This document shows, in pieces, positions 34,327-43,705 of a stretch of 64,000 nt of DNA. Every line of letters begins with the position of its first letter. The first letter of the stretch is position 1. Below the pieces are notes generated by a model. The model did no database searches, had not been told where the DNA came from, and saw only the letters and a program-made list of their open reading frames with translations. The stretch is from assembly GCA_944384825.1 (NCBI GenBank), contig CALWUT010000021.1:4399-68398 (forward strand), read 5' to 3'. A program made the translations under genes and the position numbers. This stretch comes from an uncultured Clostridia bacterium. Its GTDB lineage: Bacteria; Bacillota; Clostridia; Oscillospirales; Acutalibacteraceae.

Positions 34327-35922
34327 TTATTTTAACAGATCCCACAGCAAATTAGCTAAAGAATTAATATTAAATATCTTTCCAATTATAGTAGCTACAA
34401 CTTTTATCCAGTTTTCAAAACTGAAATTAGAATTTTTGAGCTCATCTAATGTTAGAGTAATTTCTTGGGATATATTTAAGCTACGATTCACTAATTCATA
34501 CTTATTCCAATAAGCGGCAGTTAAAGATTTTACTATTATACAAATTGTTTTTTTGAATCCATTCAATTCTGAAAAATCGTCATCTTTAATTGAATATATT
34601 AATTCAAAAATGTCTTTGAATTGCGCAGCGTATTTATAGGATAATCTTTTTAGAATATTGATTATATTTTCTTTATTTTCAAAACTTATATTATTTTCTT
34701 GCAAAAGCTCAAAAAGAGAATCTGAAAACTCTTTCAAAGAAGATTTATCTGCAAGTTTTAGAATATATTGGACTGTTTCCTCGATCATATCACTTTCAGG
34801 AGCAAGCTCAGAAATATTAAACTTTTCCGCTGATTTTTTAAAATAAAACTCATTTACTTCCCATGAAAAAGTATCATGCTGCGAAATGCCTGACGAAAAA
34901 CTATTAATACATTTAAAATTATCGTCATGTGATTCATTCATTATTCTTCCTATTACCGATGATTGTGGAGCAAAAGTAAGCAATTTATTTTTTAGTTTTT
35001 TATAGGTATTAAAAAGAGTGCTTCTAATATCTGCTCTTAGTCCCGGACCATCAAAGTTGAAAATATTTATAATACTTTTCCTTATTTTAGAGCTTTCATA
35101 GGATGATTTCATACTTGCATAAACTGCCAGATTTCCGCCTTTTGAATGTCCTCCTATATAAAGCAATGAATTAGGATATAACTCACTTACTTTACATAAA
35201 TAATCTTTAGCGTCATTCTGAGAGGGAATTTCTTCTTTCCATGATAAATCAACGTCTTCTTTCCATCCCGCAAGAGTAGAATCGGTTCCGCGATACATAA
35301 CCGCTTTGTTTCCGTCATTAAGTGTAAAAGTAACTGCTGCAAACTGTTTAGGTTCAGGCTCTTTAATATCAACGTAATTGCCGGAAAAATCACTTATAGT
35401 TATTTCTTTATATCTTGGACACTCTGCTAAATATTTTAAAAGCCTTAATCGCCTTTCTAAGTATTTGTTTTCAGAATTACAGTTCTTAATATAAAATTCT
35501 GTATTATGTTTATCTTCATCATGTAAATATAAATCAGTCATATCTTTCTTTTCATTTATTATCGAAGATAAACCCTCATACCACTTTTTTAATGTTATAC
35601 CTCGACAAGGTGTGCTAGAATCTATACATGGAACCATACACATTGGTAAGTAAGAAACTGTAGATAATATCATAGCATCTACTTCGTTGAACGGAAAATC
35701 ACATGACATTTCCGGAATATTTTTTGCACTTTCAGAACTAAGTAAATCTAAAATTAACTTATTGCTATTATTTGAAGATTTAGCGCTCTTTAAATTAATG
35801 CTATTCATAGAGTCTTGAAATACCTCTTGAGCTTTGACATTTCCAAAGCTTGTTGATGAAAATGTTGAAAGTAAATGTAAAAATATAACAAAATTAGTTT
35901 TACATTTTAAATTAAATTTCAT
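34327..35922 (-). CDS. secreted Mbeg1-like (DUF2974) alpha/beta hydrolase, lipase-like
   Basis: Signal peptide MKFNLKCKTNFVIFLHLLSTFSSTSFG. Core AVTFTLNDGNKAVMYRGTDSTLAGWKEDV...YIGGHSKGGNLAVYASM matches the family, including the GHSxG nucleophile elbow. Confidence 0.75.
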   Translation of the reverse strand: MKFNLKCKTNFVIFLHLLSTFSSTSFGNVKAQEVFQDSMNSINLKSAKSSNNSNKLILDLLSSESAKNIPEMSCDFPFNEVDAMILSTVSYLPMCMVPCIDSSTPCRGITLKKWYEGLSSIINEKKDMTDLYLHDEDKHNTEFYIKNCNSENKYLERRLRLLKYLAECPRYKEITISDFSGNYVDIKEPEPKQFAAVTFTLNDGNKAVMYRGTDSTLAGWKEDVDLSWKEEIPSQNDAKDYLCKVSELYPNSLLYIGGHSKGGNLAVYASMKSSYESSKIRKSIINIFNFDGPGLRADIRSTLFNTYKKLKNKLLTFAPQSSVIGRIMNESHDDNFKCINSFSSGISQHDTFSWEVNEFYFKKSAEKFNISELAPESDMIEETVQYILKLADKSSLKEFSDSLFELLQENNISFENKENIINILKRLSYKYAAQFKDIFELIYSIKDDDFSELNGFKKTICIIVKSLTAAYWNKYELVNRSLNISQEITLTLDELKNSNFSFENWIKVVATIIGKIFNINSLANLLWDLLK

Positions 35923-37387: not shown

Positions 37388-38845
37388 TTATAAATTTTTT
37401 AGAATCTCTGCAACTACTGATCTTTCATCAAAGGGATATTTTACTCCTTTAATTTCTTGATAATCTTCATGCCCTTTTCCTGCCAGCAGTATCATATCCC
37501 CGCTTTTAGCATTTTCAATGCAATATTTTATTGCTTCTTTTCTATCCGGCACTATAACGTAATCTCCTTTAGTCTTATCCATACCTTTTTTGATGTCGTT
37601 AATAATTTCAAGTGGATCTTCAAATCTTGGATTATCGCTTGTAATTACGCATAAATCTGAAAGTCTGCCTGCTGTTTCCCCCATTTCAAACCTGCGGACT
37701 TTAGGTCTGTTTCCACCGGCGCCAAAAAGAGTTATTATTCTTTTGGGATTATATTCTCTTAGGGTTTTAAGTACGTTTTCCATACTTAAAGCGTTATGAG
37801 CATAATCAATAAATACAGAATAATCTTGCTTATGAACTACTAGTTCTACTCTGCCTTTAATTTTAATTTTTTTAAGTCCGGAAATTATATTTTTCTTTTC
37901 TATTCCCAAGTGATTACATAAAGATGCAGCTGCTAAAGAATTATATACATTGAATTTCCCGGGTACAGAAATAAAAATATTATCTATATTAAGCTTACCT
38001 TTAAGATTAAAACTCACTCCTATAATATTTTCTTTATTGACTGCTTTTAAATCTTTTGCCAAATAATCTGCCGGATTATTTATTCCAAACGTAACTATCT
38101 TACAGCTTCTATCTTTTATAATTCCGAAATAGTTTTCATCGTCAATATTTATAAACCCTGTTTTACATTTTTTGAACAGCAAACTTTTAGCTTGTAAATA
38201 TTCTTCATAGCTTTCATGTTCGTTTTTTCCTATATGATCATGTGAAAAGTTAGTAAATATTCCATAATCAAAAACAAAGAAGTCTAAACGATTTCGAGAA
38301 AGACCTAATGATGAAGCTTCAATTATAGCAAATTCATATCCTTTTTGTACCATTAAATTCAAATATTTTTGAACTTCGTAAGATTCAGGAGTTGTATTGC
38401 GAAGAGGAATAACTTCGTTATCTAATATAACTCCCATAGTACCTATAATTCCTGATTTTATTTTTGCACTTTTTAATATCGACCTTATCATAAAAGATGT
38501 TGTAGTTTTTCCTTTAGTACCGGTTATACCTATAGTTTTTATTCTTTCAGCTGGGTGATCAAAAAAATTAGCTGACATATGTGCAAGAGCAGTTCTGGTA
38601 TTCTCCACTACAATAGTTGTAACTCCAGGTATATTTACTTCTTTACTTGCTACTATTACCTTAGCTCCTGCATTTACAGCGTCGTTAATGAAATTATGGC
38701 CGTCCGAGCCATATCCTTTTAGACAAACAAAAATGCTGTTATTTTTTACTTTACGAGAATCATATACTAAATCTGTTATTTCTATATCAGTATTTCCGTG
38801 AATTGAACTGAAATTTAAGTCTTTGATTATAAAATTTAAATTCAT
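37388..38845 (-). CDS. murE: UDP-N-acetylmuramoyl-L-alanyl-D-glutamate--2,6-diaminopimelate ligase
   Basis: GITGTKGKTTTSFMI. The DNPR motif (TSDNPRFEDP) is associated with meso-DAP-adding enzymes. Confidence 0.85.
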   Translation of the reverse strand: MNLNFIIKDLNFSSIHGNTDIEITDLVYDSRKVKNNSIFVCLKGYGSDGHNFINDAVNAGAKVIVASKEVNIPGVTTIVVENTRTALAHMSANFFDHPAERIKTIGITGTKGKTTTSFMIRSILKSAKIKSGIIGTMGVILDNEVIPLRNTTPESYEVQKYLNLMVQKGYEFAIIEASSLGLSRNRLDFFVFDYGIFTNFSHDHIGKNEHESYEEYLQAKSLLFKKCKTGFINIDDENYFGIIKDRSCKIVTFGINNPADYLAKDLKAVNKENIIGVSFNLKGKLNIDNIFISVPGKFNVYNSLAAASLCNHLGIEKKNIISGLKKIKIKGRVELVVHKQDYSVFIDYAHNALSMENVLKTLREYNPKRIITLFGAGGNRPKVRRFEMGETAGRLSDLCVITSDNPRFEDPLEIINDIKKGMDKTKGDYVIVPDRKEAIKYCIENAKSGDMILLAGKGHEDYQEIKGVKYPFDERSVVAEILKNL

Positions 38846-39060
38846 AATTTTCCCTTCGGACTTTAAAATTATTAATTAGCCTCTTAACTATATCAAATTT
38901 GACCATTTATCGCAATACTTTAAATTATTATATCTACTATATAATAATACTCTGCTTCACTATACTTAATGTCTTTTATAGCGAATAAGCCAAAATTTGA
39001 TAACCGAATTTAACTCTTTCCATATTTTTTATTTTTTATATAAAAAAATAAATAAAAGTA

Positions 39061-39089
39061 TTGACAATTTATTTTATATAGTGTACAAT
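39061..39089 (+). promoter_or_regulatory. sigma-A promoter of the Nif11-leader peptide gene
   Basis: TTGACA, 17 nt spacer, TACAAT. Confidence 0.55.
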
Positions 39090-39122
39090 TTGATTATTCT
39101 AATTTAAAGGAGTGTTGTAATT

Positions 39123-39554
39123 ATGGAAAATGTAACAGAAAAGATTAACCAGCTTTTAAGAAGTCAGGATTTTACCGATCAGCTTGGTAATGCTCAATCA
39201 CAAGATGATATTAAGAAGCTTTTTGCCAGTAATGGAGTAACATTAAATGATGAAGATGTAAATGGTTTTGCGCAGGAATTGCAGAAAAGAGCTTTAAATC
39301 TTTCTGGCTCCCAGCTTGACGAAATATCAGGAGGCAAGTGCGCTATTGGTACAATAACGGAAGGTGTTGGAGATATAGCCAAAGGAGTAGGACGCGGAAT
39401 CGGATATACTGCCGGCGGAGTAGCAAAAGGTGTTGGTTCTTTTGCTTATAATACAGGTAAGGGAGTAGGAAAAATTGCCTGGGGAACGGTTAAAATTCCT
39501 GCCAGTGTAGTTGTTGAAGCAGGAAAAGGATTCTGGAAAGGATTAACTAATTAA
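39123..39554 (+). CDS. Nif11-type leader peptide precursor with GG cleavage motif and Gly/Lys-rich repeat core
   Basis: AAAGGAG RBS. The 71-aa leader MENVTEKINQLLRSQDFTDQL...DIKKLFASNGVTLNDEDVNGFAQEL...LSGSQLDEISGG/K resembles Nif11-derived leaders. The core carries KGVG repeats. Confidence 0.65.
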   Translation: MENVTEKINQLLRSQDFTDQLGNAQSQDDIKKLFASNGVTLNDEDVNGFAQELQKRALNLSGSQLDEISGGKCAIGTITEGVGDIAKGVGRGIGYTAGGVAKGVGSFAYNTGKGVGKIAWGTVKIPASVVVEAGKGFWKGLTN

Positions 39555-39580
39555 GGTTTCAAATAAAAAGCAAATGTGTT

Positions 39581-39623
39581 CTGTAGCAAAGCTGTTGCGC
39601 TTTGTTACAGATTTTCGTTTTTT
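39581..39623 (+). terminator. rho-independent terminator
   Basis: CTGTAGCAAAGC-tgttgc-GCTTTGTTACAG (one G-U pair), followed by ATTTTCGTTTTTT. Confidence 0.65.
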
Positions 39624-39641
39624 AACACTTATTATTTAATC

Positions 39642-39833
39642 TTAATAGGTATCTTTTTCATGTGAATTAAAGTTTTCGTCCGATATGTACTCTAAAATAT
39701 CCTCTACTTTACATTTTAATAATTTACAAAGAATATCAATAAGATTTGTAGATATTCCGCCGTTGTGTTTTAACCTATGAACAGTATGACTGCTAAAACC
39801 GTACTTTTCAATTAACTTGTAAATTAAAATTTT
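39642..39833 (-). pseudogene. promoter-less, start-less 3' two-thirds of an XRE-type HTH gene
   Basis: Frame opens right after a TAA (39834-39836). Reads KILIYKLIEKYGFSSHTVHRLKHNGGISTNLIDILCKLLKCKVEDILEYISDENFNSHEKDTY. No start codon. Confidence 0.6.
39728..39814. repeat. left copy of an 87-bp perfect inverted repeat
   Basis: The reverse complement of 39728-39814 is identical to 39984-40070. Homology continues a few nt further with 2 mismatches. Confidence 0.85.
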
Positions 39834-39922
39834 TTATTTGTAGTTTAATCGTATGGTTCATATTTGAAGTATGTATAAATTTGTGCCTATGTTTTATTCT
39901 TTAATATAAGGGGGTGATAAAT

Positions 39923-40084
39923 GTGATTGTGTATGATCCACTTTGGAAAACTTTAAAAAGTAGAGGAGTAACAACTTATAAGCTAATTGAAAAGTACGGT
40001 TTTAGCAGTCATACTGTTCATAGGTTAAAACACAACGGCGGAATATCTACAAATCTTATTGATATTCTTTCTAAAATTGTATAG
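39923..40084 (+). CDS. short XRE-type HTH protein (53 aa, C-terminally shortened variant)
   Basis: GGGGGTG RBS and GTG start. VIVYDPLWKTLKSRGVTTYKLIEKYGFSSHTVHRLKHNGGISTNLIDILSKIV. Not in the ORF track because it is under 60 aa. Confidence 0.55.
   Translation: MIVYDPLWKTLKSRGVTTYKLIEKYGFSSHTVHRLKHNGGISTNLIDILSKIV
39984..40070. repeat. right copy of the 87-bp perfect inverted repeat
   Basis: taattgaaaagtacggttttagcagtcatactgttcataggttaaaacacaacggcggaatatctacaaatcttattgatattcttt. Confidence 0.85.
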
Positions 40085-40141
40085 TAACAGTAAGACGTTT
40101 TTATTGCAGTCATTAGATGACTTTAAAAGGAGACTGTGTAA

Positions 40142-40477
40142 ATGAAAGTGGCAATAGTAGGATCACGACGATTAACAAATATCACAATTTCAAAATACAT
40201 ACCTAAGGAAACAACACAGATAATAACCGGAGGAGCTAAAGGAATTGATACCTTGGCAGAAAAGTACGCAGACGAAAATAACATAACTAAGACTATAATT
40301 AAGCCTGAATATAAAAAATACGGAATTCACGCCCCACTTATAAGAAATAAAGAGATAGTAGAAAAAGCAGATTTAATAATAGCAATTTGGGACGGAGAAT
40401 CTAAAGGAACTAAATCTGCTATTGATTACGCAAAAGAGCTTAACAAAAAAATAAATTTATATATTTTAAATATTTGA
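40142..40477 (+). CDS. SLOG-fold protein (DUF2493 / DprA-Smf-like Rossmann module)
   Basis: 111 aa. VAIVGSRR...IITGGAKGIDTLAEKYA...RNKEIVEKADLIIAIWDGESKGTKSAIDYA. AAAGGAG RBS. Confidence 0.6.
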   Translation: MKVAIVGSRRLTNITISKYIPKETTQIITGGAKGIDTLAEKYADENNITKTIIKPEYKKYGIHAPLIRNKEIVEKADLIIAIWDGESKGTKSAIDYAKELNKKINLYILNI

Positions 40478-43058: not shown

Positions 43059-43178
43059 ATTAGTTTTTAATTAATTTTAGATATCATACTGTTTATAATG
43101 AAACTGCTAAAATTATATTCATTTAAAATTCTTCTCATTTATAATAAGCTTAAAAAAGCTAATATTTTTTTAATTTTA

Positions 43179-43705
43179 TGCGGAAGTCACATGAGTTTTA
43201 CGGAAAAGGGATTTATAAAATTTCAGATAATTGTTATAGCTTTTGGTATAAATTTGTTTTTCCAAATATAGGTGCAATTGAAAGTGAAAACGGTTAAATT
43301 GTTTTAAAGCAAATGGTTATTCCAAGGCTTTCTGAATATATCGGAAAGCCATTTAAAAATATTTGCACTCAGTATATGCTGAGAAAAAACAGAGAAAATA
43401 AACTTTCATTTCAGTTTGTAGAGTGCGGAAGATGGTGGAGTGAGTACGGATAAAGAGCTTAAAAGCGAAGCTGAAATTAATTTTGCCGCCACTTTTGAAA
43501 GAAATATAATGCTTGGTGAATGTAAATGGAGGAGTGAAATAAACGATGTTTCAGAATTAAATAAATTAATAGAAGAAGTAAAATTCTTCAGAGCATATAA
43601 AGAGAAATATTTTTATTTTTTCTAAATCATCATTTTCAAATGAATGCAAAAAGCTATGATATGAAAAATTTATTCTTAATTGAAATTCCGGATTTATTCA
43701 AGTAA
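43179..43705 (+). pseudogene. remnant of a DUF234-type ATPase gene (C-terminal part, multiple stops and shifts)
   Basis: Fragments GIYKISDNCYSFWYKFVFPNIGAIESENG, VIPRLSEYIGKPFKNICTQYMLRKN...ECGRWWSEYG and NFAATFERNIMLGECKWRSEINDVSELNKL lie in different frames. Confidence 0.5.

What the first reader, a model, noticed from the sequence alone, without database searches (positions are those of the whole stretch)
39123..39554. Nif11-type long leader peptide with GG site and a KGVG-repeat core in a Firmicute
The first 71 residues resemble Nif11-derived leaders: an N-terminal helical region, ...DDIKKLFASNGVTLNDEDVNGFAQEL..., and an end of LSGSQLDEISGG/K. These leaders are best known from cyanobacterial natural-product precursors exported by C39 ABC transporters. 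The 72-aa core is Gly/Lys-rich with repeated KGVG units (AKGVGRGIGYTAGGVAKGVGSFAYNTGKGVGKIAWG) and one Cys right after the cut site. The gene has a consensus promoter and a strong terminator. Together with the GG peptide at 33924, it brackets murE-murF. No modification enzyme or exporter is nearby.
Basis: partly seen in the sequence, partly recalled or inferred. Interest (0 to 1): 0.65.

Follow-up and report, generated by a model that had tools for sequence, protein, structure and literature searches.

The report
Orphan long-leader peptide with 11-residue repeats
A gut Clostridia bacterium carries a real, conserved small gene with a long Nif11-type export leader ending in Gly-Gly, followed by a new 72-residue, positively charged, glycine-rich peptide made of six 11-residue repeats that probably lies on membranes; no exporter lies within the 64-kb window, and its function is untested.

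Summary
Window 39123-39554 (+) is a genuine 143-aa gene with homologues under purifying selection, a conserved promoter and RBS, and a strong terminator.

Residues 1-71 are a Nif11-type double-glycine leader. The direct TIGR03798 hit is below cutoff (13.8 vs 32.3 bits). Profile evidence is strong: hhalign gives 98.8% probability (E 1e-16) against relatives that reach the cutoff. An HMM of 136 other leaders scores it at 72 bits. Of 147 sequences scanned, 118 hit TIGR03798.

The core is a new, very small family, always joined to this leader. It is more ordered than "KGVG repeats": six 11-residue repeats whose amphipathic signal peaks at 97-98° per residue, the geometry of an 11/3 helix (as in alpha-synuclein and apolipoproteins). 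Fourteen of 15 family members share this. None of 70 control cores does.

The gene is solitary and vertically inherited, in two conserved housekeeping settings. No C39 exporter, immunity gene or modification enzyme lies in the window or within ±10 kb at relatives' loci.

Most likely it is the precursor of an unmodified, membrane-active secreted peptide, processed by an exporter encoded elsewhere. Nif11 leaders are already known in Firmicutes. The new elements are the core architecture and the orphan, conserved status.

The parts
39061..39089 (+). Sigma-70-type promoter: TTGACA (39061-39066), 17-nt spacer, TACAAT (39084-39089). An A/T-rich tract lies upstream.
   Evidence: 11 of 12 matches. The -35, -10 and the upstream AAATAAAAGTATTGACAA block are conserved in orthologous loci L001 and L003.
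39106..39112 (+). Ribosome-binding site AAAGGAG, 10 nt before the ATG.
   Evidence: Sequence. Invariant in L001 and L003.
39123..39554 (+). Precursor gene: 143 codons plus stop. The full-length product is 14.8 kDa, pI 6.3.
   Evidence: dN/dS 0.16 versus orthologues. Mass and pI.
39123..39335 (+). Leader, residues 1-71. It is a Nif11-type, acidic (net -6, pI 4.2), four-helix domain ending in LSGSQLDEISGG. The predicted cut is after G71 (GGA GGC = 39330-39335).
   Evidence: hhalign 98.8%, E 1.2e-16. Leader HMM 72.2 bits. TIGR03798 aligns residues 15-71 to profile 17-68/68 but scores only 13.8 bits. AF2 pLDDT 87-97 for residues 1-50 and 83 for 51-60; helices 4-13, 15-22, 27-36 and 43-69. Cut-site consensus.
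39336..39551 (+). Core, i.e. the predicted mature peptide, residues 72-143. It is 72 aa, 7055 Da, pI 9.85, net +6, 25% Gly, with one Cys at +2.
   Evidence: Core dN/dS 0.09-0.11 and 86-89% identity versus 65-66% for the leader. A core-only profile finds only 114-150-aa proteins carrying the same leader.
39357..39551 (+). Six 11-residue (hendecad) repeats, residues 79-143: TEGVGDIAKGV / GRGIGYTAGGV / AKGVGSFAYNT / GKGVGKIAWGT / VKIPASVVVEA / GKGFWKGLTN. The fifth repeat carries the family-invariant Pro126.
   Evidence: Autocorrelation z 4.7 at lag 11 and 5.7 at lag 22, with side peaks at 4, 7, 15 and 18. The hydrophobic moment peaks at 96-98 degrees per residue. At 98.18 degrees muH is 0.35, z 5, reached by 0 of 5000 shuffles; it falls to z 1.5 at 100 degrees. 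The feature is family-wide. There is no DNA-level tandem repeat.
39580..39621 (+). Intrinsic terminator: 13-bp stem with 6-nt loop (39580-39611), then TTTTCGTTTT.
   Evidence: Fold -22.5 kcal/mol, z -3.5.

Best explanation
The gene encodes a solitary precursor of an unmodified, secreted, membrane-active peptide.

Shown: it is a real gene under purifying selection. Its first 71 residues are homologous to the Nif11-type double-glycine leaders that are abundant in Clostridia. Its core belongs to a small new family built from six 11-residue repeats.

Inferred: the acidic four-helix leader keeps the basic core neutral and inactive in the cell. The leader presents the L(-12)/L(-7)/I(-4)/G(-2)G(-1) motif to a peptidase-C39 ABC exporter (PCAT) encoded elsewhere in the genome. 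That exporter cuts after Gly71 and releases a 72-residue, 7.06-kDa, +6 peptide.

Inferred from sequence periodicity: the free peptide is disordered in water because it is 25% Gly. On an anionic membrane it folds into one long 11/3 amphipathic helix. This helix has a hydrophobic stripe (repeat positions g, k, d, h), a lysine stripe (b, f) and small Gly/Ala faces that allow close packing. This is the geometry used by alpha-synuclein, apolipoproteins and group-3 LEA proteins.

Most speculative: the consequence is membrane perturbation of competitors, i.e. a class II-like bacteriocin. The conserved, immunity-less, single-copy status leaves a non-killing extracellular role open.
For: Leader homology:
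- hhalign 98.8% probability, E 1.2e-16, over columns 2-73.
- Leader HMM built without the close family scores 72.2 bits, E 3e-21.
- 118 of 147 sequences scanned hit TIGR03798, 34 hit the class IIb cerein 7B/lactobin model and 17 the CTB bacteriocin model. 32 hit Pfam Bacteriocin_IIc and 19 hit Nif11.
- The cut-site consensus is matched.

A typical relative of the leader family, P0039 in L012, sits with at least three such precursors (the leader HMM also gives a weaker, 24.8-bit hit to a fourth ORF, L012 2407-2685), a HlyD-like gene and a C39 domain 2.8e-35 to LahT150. LahT150 cleaves Nif11-type leaders at GG and needs only the last 13 or so leader residues (PMC6363468).

Core:
- Net +6 versus a -6 leader.
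- Periodicity at lags 11 and 22.
- Moment maximum at 97-98.5 degrees in 14 of 15 family members, z 3.75-6.6. The 70 control cores give mean z 0.5 and maximum 3.3.
- P0155 has an exact 11-residue tandem duplication.
- The core-only AF2 model is one helix, residues 4-71, at low confidence.

Selection: dN/dS is 0.09-0.11 for the core and 0.21-0.23 for the leader.

Expression signals are conserved.

A second GG-leader peptide lies 5 kb away and is also conserved in L003. This implies that a GG-processing exporter exists in this lineage.
Against: - The direct TIGR03798 score is far below the curated cutoff.
- No C39, HlyD-like, immunity or modification gene is in the 64-kb window. None lies within about 10 kb in nine relatives' loci with usable flank (L003).
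- The gene is single-copy, syntenic and vertically inherited among housekeeping genes. Its core is more conserved than its leader. Typical N11P or bacteriocin loci show the opposite: paralogue swarms, hypervariable cores and strain-variable islands.
- The high Gly content disfavours helix. In the full-length AF2 model the core (residues 70-117) has pLDDT below 50 and is coil.
- The only sequence similarity to alpha-synuclein is E 1.4, so this is an analogy only.
- No activity, cleavage or export data exist.
Confidence: 0.6

Rival explanations
1. It is exported and cleaved as above, but the mature peptide is not a weapon. It would serve a conserved, lineage-wide extracellular or envelope role, such as coating the producer's own membrane or vesicles, acting at the surface or in a matrix, or signalling. 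That would explain why it needs no immunity gene and is inherited vertically.
For: The gene is single-copy and syntenic in two housekeeping settings. One is murF-murE <> gene (window, L001, L003), with a Mur ligase <> GG peptide + P0029 in L011. The other is PEPCK > gene > TrmA-like in L004, L014, L015 and L016 (in L009 IspD follows). There is no adjacent immunity ORF. The core is under strong purifying selection. The sigma-A-like promoter is of consensus strength and conserved, with no obvious quorum-type direct repeats. There is no match on plasmids or phages.
Against: Nothing links the peptide to a particular cellular process. Cationic amphipathic peptides of this size behind GG leaders are, where tested, mostly bacteriocins. 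Relatives with the same leader carry class IIb/IIc-like cores. One lineage (L015/L016) carries a stop codon in the leader, which is unexpected for an essential function.
Confidence: 0.2
2. It is an intracellular protein that is never cleaved. The Nif11-like domain and the Gly-rich tail would act together in the cytoplasm, for example as a membrane-curvature or lipid-binding factor on the inner leaflet. The GG would be only a relic of ancestry.
For: There is no exporter in the window or near any relative. The leader folds as a confident compact helical domain and is itself under purifying selection, dN/dS 0.21-0.23. The full-length protein is near-neutral, pI 6.3.
Against: The leader residues that stay invariant or nearly so across 144 relatives are exactly the PCAT recognition positions: L-12, L-7, V/I-4, G-2, G-1 (A2 summary). 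Homology ends at the GG. In L015/L016 a copy retains only the C-terminal part of the leader, with the GG motif, after a nonsense codon. The core family is never found without this leader. A second GG-leader gene in the same locus argues that the lineage has such an exporter.
Confidence: 0.12
3. It is a RiPP precursor whose core is post-translationally modified by enzymes encoded elsewhere. Examples would be a lanthionine or other crosslink involving Cys73 and Ser/Thr. This is how cyanobacterial N11P and prochlorosin precursors work.
For: Nif11-type leaders classically guide LanM or cyclodehydratases, and precursors can lie far from their enzymes (PMC2887384). Cys73 is invariant in the six close homologues, and the core has eight Ser/Thr.
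Against: The core has only one Cys. That Cys is not conserved in the wider core family: P0006 and P0008 have Ser at that position, and others lack it. No LanM, LanKC, YcaO, radical SAM or other tailoring enzyme was found among the Pfam-scanned genes of the window, which cover about 25-51 kb almost completely and the larger ORFs elsewhere. The core is long, conserved and repeat-structured, not short, hypervariable and Cys/Ser/Thr-rich. Many relatives with this leader carry unmodified class II-type cores.
Confidence: 0.07

Closest known systems
Nif11-type double-glycine leader precursors of Clostridia, e.g. LahA1-9 of Lachnospiraceae bacterium C6A11 with the PCAT LahT (PMC6363468); TIGR03798 / N11P family (PMC2887384)
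   Same: Both have a leader of about 70 residues, acidic and helical, with the F...(E/D)E.QKLFA..G(V/I).L(S/T).EE pattern, ending in LSxx(E/D)LxxVSGG. Homology stops at the GG. Profile-profile homology is 98.8%.
   Different: The window protein scores below the TIGR03798 cutoff on its own. It is a single gene with no adjacent paralogues, PCAT, HlyD-like gene or LanM. Its core is conserved rather than hypervariable, is 72 aa long, and is built from 11-residue repeats.
Unmodified class II bacteriocins with GG leaders (class IIb lactobin A/cerein 7B family TIGR03949, Bacteriocin_IIc PF10439, class IId)
   Same: Both have a GG leader, a cationic Gly-rich mature peptide under 10 kDa, GxxxG-type small-residue motifs and no modification enzymes. 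Dozens of proteins sharing this leader match those core models.
   Different: The window core matches none of those models. The leader is about three times longer than a classical class II leader. There is no immunity or partner peptide gene. The core has no hydrophobic transmembrane-like stretch, only a surface-type amphipathic pattern.
11-residue-repeat (11/3 helix) membrane-surface binders: alpha-synuclein KTKEGV repeats, exchangeable apolipoproteins, group-3 LEA proteins
   Same: Both have about six imperfect 11-mers. Amphipathicity stays coherent only at about 98 degrees per residue. Lys flanks a narrow hydrophobic face, small residues are abundant, and the unbound state is predicted disordered.
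   Different: There is no detectable homology (phmmer E 1.4). The protein is bacterial, sits behind a secretion leader, is much richer in Gly, and has a conserved Pro in the fifth repeat. This is an analogy of design only, and membrane binding is untested.

Membership tests
Nif11-like leader peptide family (TIGR03798, N11P) | Scores at or above the curated cutoff of the family model (32.3 bits) | tested here: not met
   13.8 bits, E 0.054; residues 15-71 align to profile positions 17-68 of 68.
Nif11-like leader peptide family (TIGR03798, N11P) | Leader region homologous to bona fide members | tested here: met
   hhalign 98.8%, E 1.2e-16, against six relatives, three above the cutoff and two within 0.4 bits of it. 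118 of 147 sequences scanned hit TIGR03798 at E<=0.01. An HMM of 136 other leaders scores the ORF at 72.2 bits.
Nif11-like leader peptide family (TIGR03798, N11P) | [quoted passage not shown] | tested here: met
   LSGSQLDEISGG fits L-12 S-11 (D/E)-8 L-7 (V/I)-4 (S/A)-3 G G, derived from 144 relatives. The alignments end at G71.
Nif11-like leader peptide family (TIGR03798, N11P) | Co-occurrence or clustering with a C39-peptidase ABC exporter | tested here: inconclusive
   None in the 64-kb window or within about 10 kb of relatives. The rest of the genome could not be searched.
Nif11-like leader peptide family (TIGR03798, N11P) | Several paralogous precursors with a hypervariable, Cys/Ser/Thr-rich core and a tailoring enzyme | tested here: not met
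   There is only one such leader among all window ORFs. The core is more conserved than the leader. The core has one Cys. No tailoring enzyme was found among the Pfam-scanned genes of the window.
Class II (unmodified) bacteriocin | GG leader plus a small cationic mature peptide without modification genes | tested here: met
   72 aa, 7055 Da, pI 9.85, net +6. No modification genes were found among the Pfam-scanned genes of the window.
Class II (unmodified) bacteriocin | Match of the core to a known bacteriocin family model | tested here: not met
   No Pfam or NCBIfam bacteriocin model is hit by the protein or by four family cores, even at E<=10.
Class II (unmodified) bacteriocin | Adjacent immunity gene and dedicated transporter or accessory genes | tested here: not met
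   The neighbours are murE (divergent) and an HTH fragment, then a SLOG/YAcAr protein and FeoAB. The same solitary arrangement is seen in relatives.
Class II (unmodified) bacteriocin | Antimicrobial activity of the mature peptide | not testable with these tools
   Needs synthetic or expressed peptide and indicator strains.
11/3 amphipathic-helix repeat proteins (alpha-synuclein / apolipoprotein / LEA3 type; a structural class, not a homologous family) | Tandem 11-residue periodicity with amphipathicity maximal near 98 degrees per residue | tested here: met
   z about 5, reached by 0 of 5000 shuffles, seen in 14 of 15 family members and in none of the controls above z 4.
11/3 amphipathic-helix repeat proteins (alpha-synuclein / apolipoprotein / LEA3 type; a structural class, not a homologous family) | Lipid-induced folding into a surface-bound helix | not testable with these tools
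   Only low-confidence AF2 models are available: coil in the full-length model and a single helix at pLDDT about 55 in the core-only model.

The most novel reading that the evidence does not exclude
A small clade of gut Oscillospiraceae-like Clostridia has turned the Nif11-leader/PCAT bacteriocin export route to a conserved, vertically inherited 'housekeeping' secreted protein. This would be a bacterial, alpha-synuclein-like hendecad-repeat peptide that coats or remodels membranes (its own envelope or vesicles, or host or competitor membranes) rather than acting as a strain-variable toxin. It would also be the first described GG-leader cargo built from 11/3-helix repeats.
Probability: 0.2. Interest if true: 0.7.

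Novelty: new member of a known kind. Interest (0 to 1): 0.45.

Why it matters
Long Nif11-type leaders are mostly discussed as handles for RiPP tailoring enzymes in cyanobacteria. This search shows hundreds of Clostridia-type peptides that use the same leader for apparently unmodified cargo, and this gene is an unusual case among them.

It is unusual because it is a conserved, single-copy, exporter-less locus whose cargo has the repeat geometry of eukaryotic membrane-surface binders. If the peptide is secreted and active, it adds a new structural type to gut bacteriocins or secreted membrane effectors. It also offers a simple sequence rule, 11-residue periodicity, for finding more.

If the peptide is not secreted, the family would be a counter-example to reading every Nif11+GG protein as a natural-product precursor. 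The family comes from uncultured gut and other metagenome-assembled genomes and is annotated only as 'hypothetical protein'.

Tried and rejected
- Direct family models: Pfam gave nothing meaningful, only DUF4479 and SctB2 at E>0.2. NCBIfam gave only sub-threshold Nif11, DsbA and SseD hits. The SseD/SctB translocon hits were rejected as compositional.
- Giant proteins P0009, P0010, P0028 and P0113 matched core positions 67-130 in many stretches. On reading them they are cadherin/VCBS-like Ig repeats, so the hits are a composition artefact.
- Foldseek of the full-length model against the PDB found nothing at E<=0.001, only weak EF-hand-like helix pairs.
- The PDB sequence search with the core gave lysozyme, endolysin and alpha-synuclein at E 0.4-1.4, none significant.
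- Tandem Repeats Finder found no DNA-level repeat in the core, so the 11-mers are old and diverged.
- Rfam on 38700-40200 found no riboswitch or leader RNA.
- The metagenome locus scan with alignment A3 failed because no stretch was conserved enough and was not repeated.
A search for a C39 exporter in the same MAG was therefore impossible.
- tblastn against plasmids and phages gave no match, so an origin on a plasmid or phage in those collections is unsupported.
- The lanthipeptide reading was considered and set aside: one non-conserved Cys and no LanM-type enzyme.

Full report
**1. What is in the sequence**

Window 39123-39554 (+) is an uninterrupted 143-codon ORF.

- It has a near-consensus promoter, TTGACA-17-TACAAT, at 39061-39089.
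- An AAAGGAG ribosome-binding site lies 10 nt before the ATG.
- The terminator has a 13-bp stem plus a T-run at 39580-39621. It folds at -22.5 kcal/mol, z -3.5.
- The -35, -10 and RBS are conserved in two orthologous loci.

There is a 71-residue N-terminal part ending LSGSQLDEISGG, then K-C and a Gly/Lys-rich 72-residue tail. The Cys is at +2.

The other GG peptide in the window (33924-34310, -) is separated from murF by a 531-aa Mbeg1-like gene (PF11187, 1.2e-57). So it does not strictly 'bracket' murE-murF.

**2. It is a real gene**

The 5.8-billion-cluster database holds five homologue clusters, all exactly 143 aa, at 72-99% identity. A GTDB representative MAG ('uncultured Eubacteriales', Hadza gut) has one at 76%.

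Against two orthologues, dS is about 0.9. dN/dS is 0.16 overall, 0.21-0.23 in the leader and 0.09-0.11 in the core. Mean pairwise identity is 67% in the leader and 82% in the core.

The organism is an AT-rich (about 30% GC), spore-forming Clostridia-type Firmicute. A YqfD gene is in the window. A family member is annotated 'Oscillospiraceae bacterium'.

**3. The leader**

Alone, the protein hits TIGR03798 (leader_Nif11) at only 13.8 bits, E 0.054, against a cutoff of 32.3. The alignment does run from residue 15 to G71 and ends at the last profile position. Pfam gives nothing.

A profile of the six close sequences was searched with HMMER against 1.84 billion representatives. It finds 365 proteins at E<=1e-3. 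Nearly all are peptides of 80-200 aa whose first 70 or so residues align to the leader and end in GG.

- Of 147 sequences scanned (146 hits plus the window protein, which does not hit), 118 hit TIGR03798 at E<=0.01, best 8.4e-10.
- Four of ten checked individually exceed the curated cutoff.
- 19 hit Pfam Nif11.
- hhalign of the window family against six such relatives gives 98.8% probability, E 1.2e-16, over columns 2-73.
- An HMM built from 136 leaders, excluding the window's own core family, scores the window ORF at 72.2 bits, E 3e-21.

The cut-site consensus over 144 relatives is L(-12) S(-11) x x D/E(-8) L(-7) x x V/I(-4) S/A(-3) G G. The window has L S G S Q L D E I S G G.

AlphaFold2 with the 147-sequence alignment models residues 1-50 at pLDDT 87-97 (83 for 51-60), as helices 4-13, 15-22, 27-36 and 43-69. 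Foldseek finds no significant PDB neighbour.

The leader assignment is therefore supported by homology, although the curated-cutoff membership test is formally failed.

Nif11-type leaders are already known in Firmicutes. LahA1-9 and LahT occur in a Lachnospiraceae, and LahT150 needs only the last 13 or so leader residues (PMC6363468). Pelotomaculum has seven N11P precursors (PMC2887384).

**4. The core**

The core is 25% Gly with net charge +6. The leader is -6, so the precursor is near neutral.

The 'KGVG' units are the visible part of an 11-residue repeat that starts at residue 79:

- TEGVGDIAKGV
- GRGIGYTAGGV
- AKGVGSFAYNT
- GKGVGKIAWGT
- VKIPASVVVEA
- GKGFWKGLTN

BLOSUM autocorrelation peaks at lags 4, 7, 11, 15, 18 and 22, with z 4.7 at 11 and 5.7 at 22 against shuffles. 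This is the signature of 3.67 residues per turn.

The hydrophobic moment over the whole 72 residues is maximal at 96-98 degrees per residue. At 98.18 degrees muH is 0.35, z 5.0, reached by 0 of 5000 shuffles. It falls to z 1.5 at the canonical 100 degrees.

The same holds in 14 of 15 members of the core family, down to 26-40% identity: maxima at 97-98.5 degrees, z 3.75-6.6. The 70 unrelated cores (at least 40 aa) behind the same kind of leader give mean z 0.5, maximum 3.3.

One member, P0155, carries an exact 11-residue tandem duplication. There is no DNA-level repeat, so the repeats are ancient.

AF2 is uninformative for the core. It is coil at pLDDT below 50 in the full-length model. It is one continuous helix, residues 4-71, at pLDDT about 55 in a core-only model.

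No Pfam, NCBIfam or PDB sequence match is significant. The alpha-synuclein hit (E 1.4) is only an analogy of design.

**5. The family and its genomic setting**

Proteins sharing both leader and core form a very small family. Its motif is W-G-x4-P-x2-(L/V)-V-x3-G-K-G-x3-G, and Pro126 is invariant.

A core-only profile finds 14 clusters. All are 114-150 aa and carry this leader. None carries a name other than 'hypothetical protein'.

The gene is always solitary, in one of two conserved settings:

- Divergent from murE-murF and followed by a SLOG/YAcAr gene and FeoAB: window and L001 (downstream genes seen); L003 shares the upstream side, and its contig ends after the gene. The distant member P0029 is likewise divergent from a Mur ligase, next to a short-leader GG peptide.
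- Between PEPCK and a TrmA-like methyltransferase: L004, L014, L015, L016. L009 has PEPCK upstream and IspD downstream.

No PCAT, HlyD-like, immunity or tailoring gene lies within the available flanks.

In the window itself, Pfam annotation of 25-51 kb and of the larger ORFs elsewhere shows the following:

- a prophage at about 1-21 kb
- PFOR, ProRS, ribosomal proteins, DegV, Mur ligases and FeoAB
- a glycosyltransferase island
- RecO, Era, DAGK and YqfD

phmmer with a C39 domain and a HlyD-like protein, both taken from a typical relative's cluster, finds nothing in any window ORF of at least 30 aa.

That typical relative shows what a canonical locus looks like. P0039 in L012 has at least three Nif11-leader precursors (the leader HMM also gives a weaker, 24.8-bit hit to a fourth ORF), a HlyD-like gene, and a C39 domain 2.8e-35 to LahT150, PDB 6mpz.

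The protein has no match on plasmids or phages.

In L015/L016 the gene has an in-frame stop at codon 12. Only the C-terminal part of the leader, with the GG site, remains translatable.

**6. Interpretation**

Best explanation (0.6): a solitary precursor is exported and cut after G71 by a C39 ABC exporter encoded elsewhere. This releases an unmodified 7.06-kDa cationic peptide that folds on anionic membranes into a long 11/3 amphipathic helix.

- Shown: gene reality, leader homology, cut-site motif, core periodicity and its family-wide conservation, and absence of local partners.
- Inferred: cleavage, export, membrane binding and biological role.

The bacteriocin role is only the default reading. 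The vertical, single-copy, immunity-less pattern, with a core more conserved than the leader, is atypical for bacteriocins. It keeps a non-killing extracellular role alive (0.2). An uncleaved intracellular protein (0.12) and a remotely modified RiPP (0.07) are less likely, for the reasons given under the rival explanations.

**7. Novelty and score**

The kind of system, a Nif11-type GG-leader precursor, is known, including in Firmicutes. The new elements are the core family, its hendecad architecture, and its orphan, conserved status.

I file it as a new member of a known kind, interest 0.45. There is a 0.2 chance of the more novel 'housekeeping secreted hendecad protein' reading.

Noticed in passing
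window 39640-40084 (inverted-repeat arms 39723-39825 and 39973-40075): A 103-nt inverted repeat, 96% complementary and 147 nt apart, lies just downstream of the finding's terminator and flanks the promoter-proximal half of a Cro/C1-type HTH_26 gene. In the present orientation the + strand ORF is truncated (56 aa, ending SKIV). Inverting 39723-40075 in silico joins it to the - strand C-terminal half, giving a full 79-aa HTH protein. This looks like an invertible (phase-variable) switch or a decayed duplication. A weaker version (74 nt, 84%) exists in the orthologous locus L001 5192-5455.
   Followed up: partly
window 30465-31487 (-): A 340-aa protein between ProRS and rplM has a classic C-terminal RING-H2 finger, CVICQ...CGHSFHKECLELW...CPTCRK (PF13639, E 1.6e-12). 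This eukaryote-type E3-ligase-like domain is unusual in a gut commensal Firmicute. Relatives' contigs also carry a Ras/Roc-like GTPase (L009 530-1057) and a Myb DNA-binding protein (L011 12822-13364).
   Followed up: no
window 33924-34310 (-) and 34327-35922 (-): A second double-glycine peptide has a short leader ...LESSELEYVTGG and a 93-aa core with two Gly-rich hydrophobic segments. It gives weak Bacteriocin_IIc and CTB-bacteriocin hits at E about 0.1. It lies 16 bp downstream of a 531-aa Mbeg1-like alpha/beta-hydrolase gene (PF11187, 1.2e-57). Both are conserved in L003, where the site reads VNAG. The pair may share the unknown exporter with the finding.
   Followed up: partly
window ~1-21000: This is a prophage or prophage remnant on the - strand, at higher GC (33-39% vs about 30%). 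It carries a major capsid, an S78 prohead protease, a portal (only the C-terminal two-thirds of the profile), the TerL nuclease domain, a DnaB-type helicase (truncated), an HTH_36 protein and a Sak single-strand annealing protein. Several genes look shortened, which suggests decay.
   Followed up: partly
window ~43100-52500: An island is absent from the orthologous locus L001, where FeoB is followed directly by RecO. It carries a 921-aa GT2+GT8 glycosyltransferase with four ricin-type lectin repeats, UDP-galactopyranose mutase, a DUF1796 papain-like protein and a BppU_N (phage baseplate) domain protein.
   Followed up: no
L011 9709-9978 (+): Immediately upstream of the distant family member P0029 is an 89-aa ORF. 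It has a short GG leader (...NKELESISGG) and a CxxC...CxxC zinc-ribbon-like core. This is another unusual GG-leader cargo in the same lineage.
   Followed up: no
L015 9398-9817 and L016 1609-1953: The family member in this lineage has an in-frame stop at codon 12 of the leader (MSINIEKVNEC*KK...). The gene was called from an internal Met as a 114-aa product that keeps the GG site. It is either a decaying copy or evidence that the N-terminal half of the leader is dispensable.
   Followed up: partly
Relatives P0013, P0039, P0070, P0109, P0132, P0136, P0152, P0156 and others: Many unrelated cores behind this Clostridia-type Nif11 leader end in a basic-Trp C-terminus (...RRW, ...KKW, ...KW). This recurring C-terminal motif was not explained here.
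   Followed up: no
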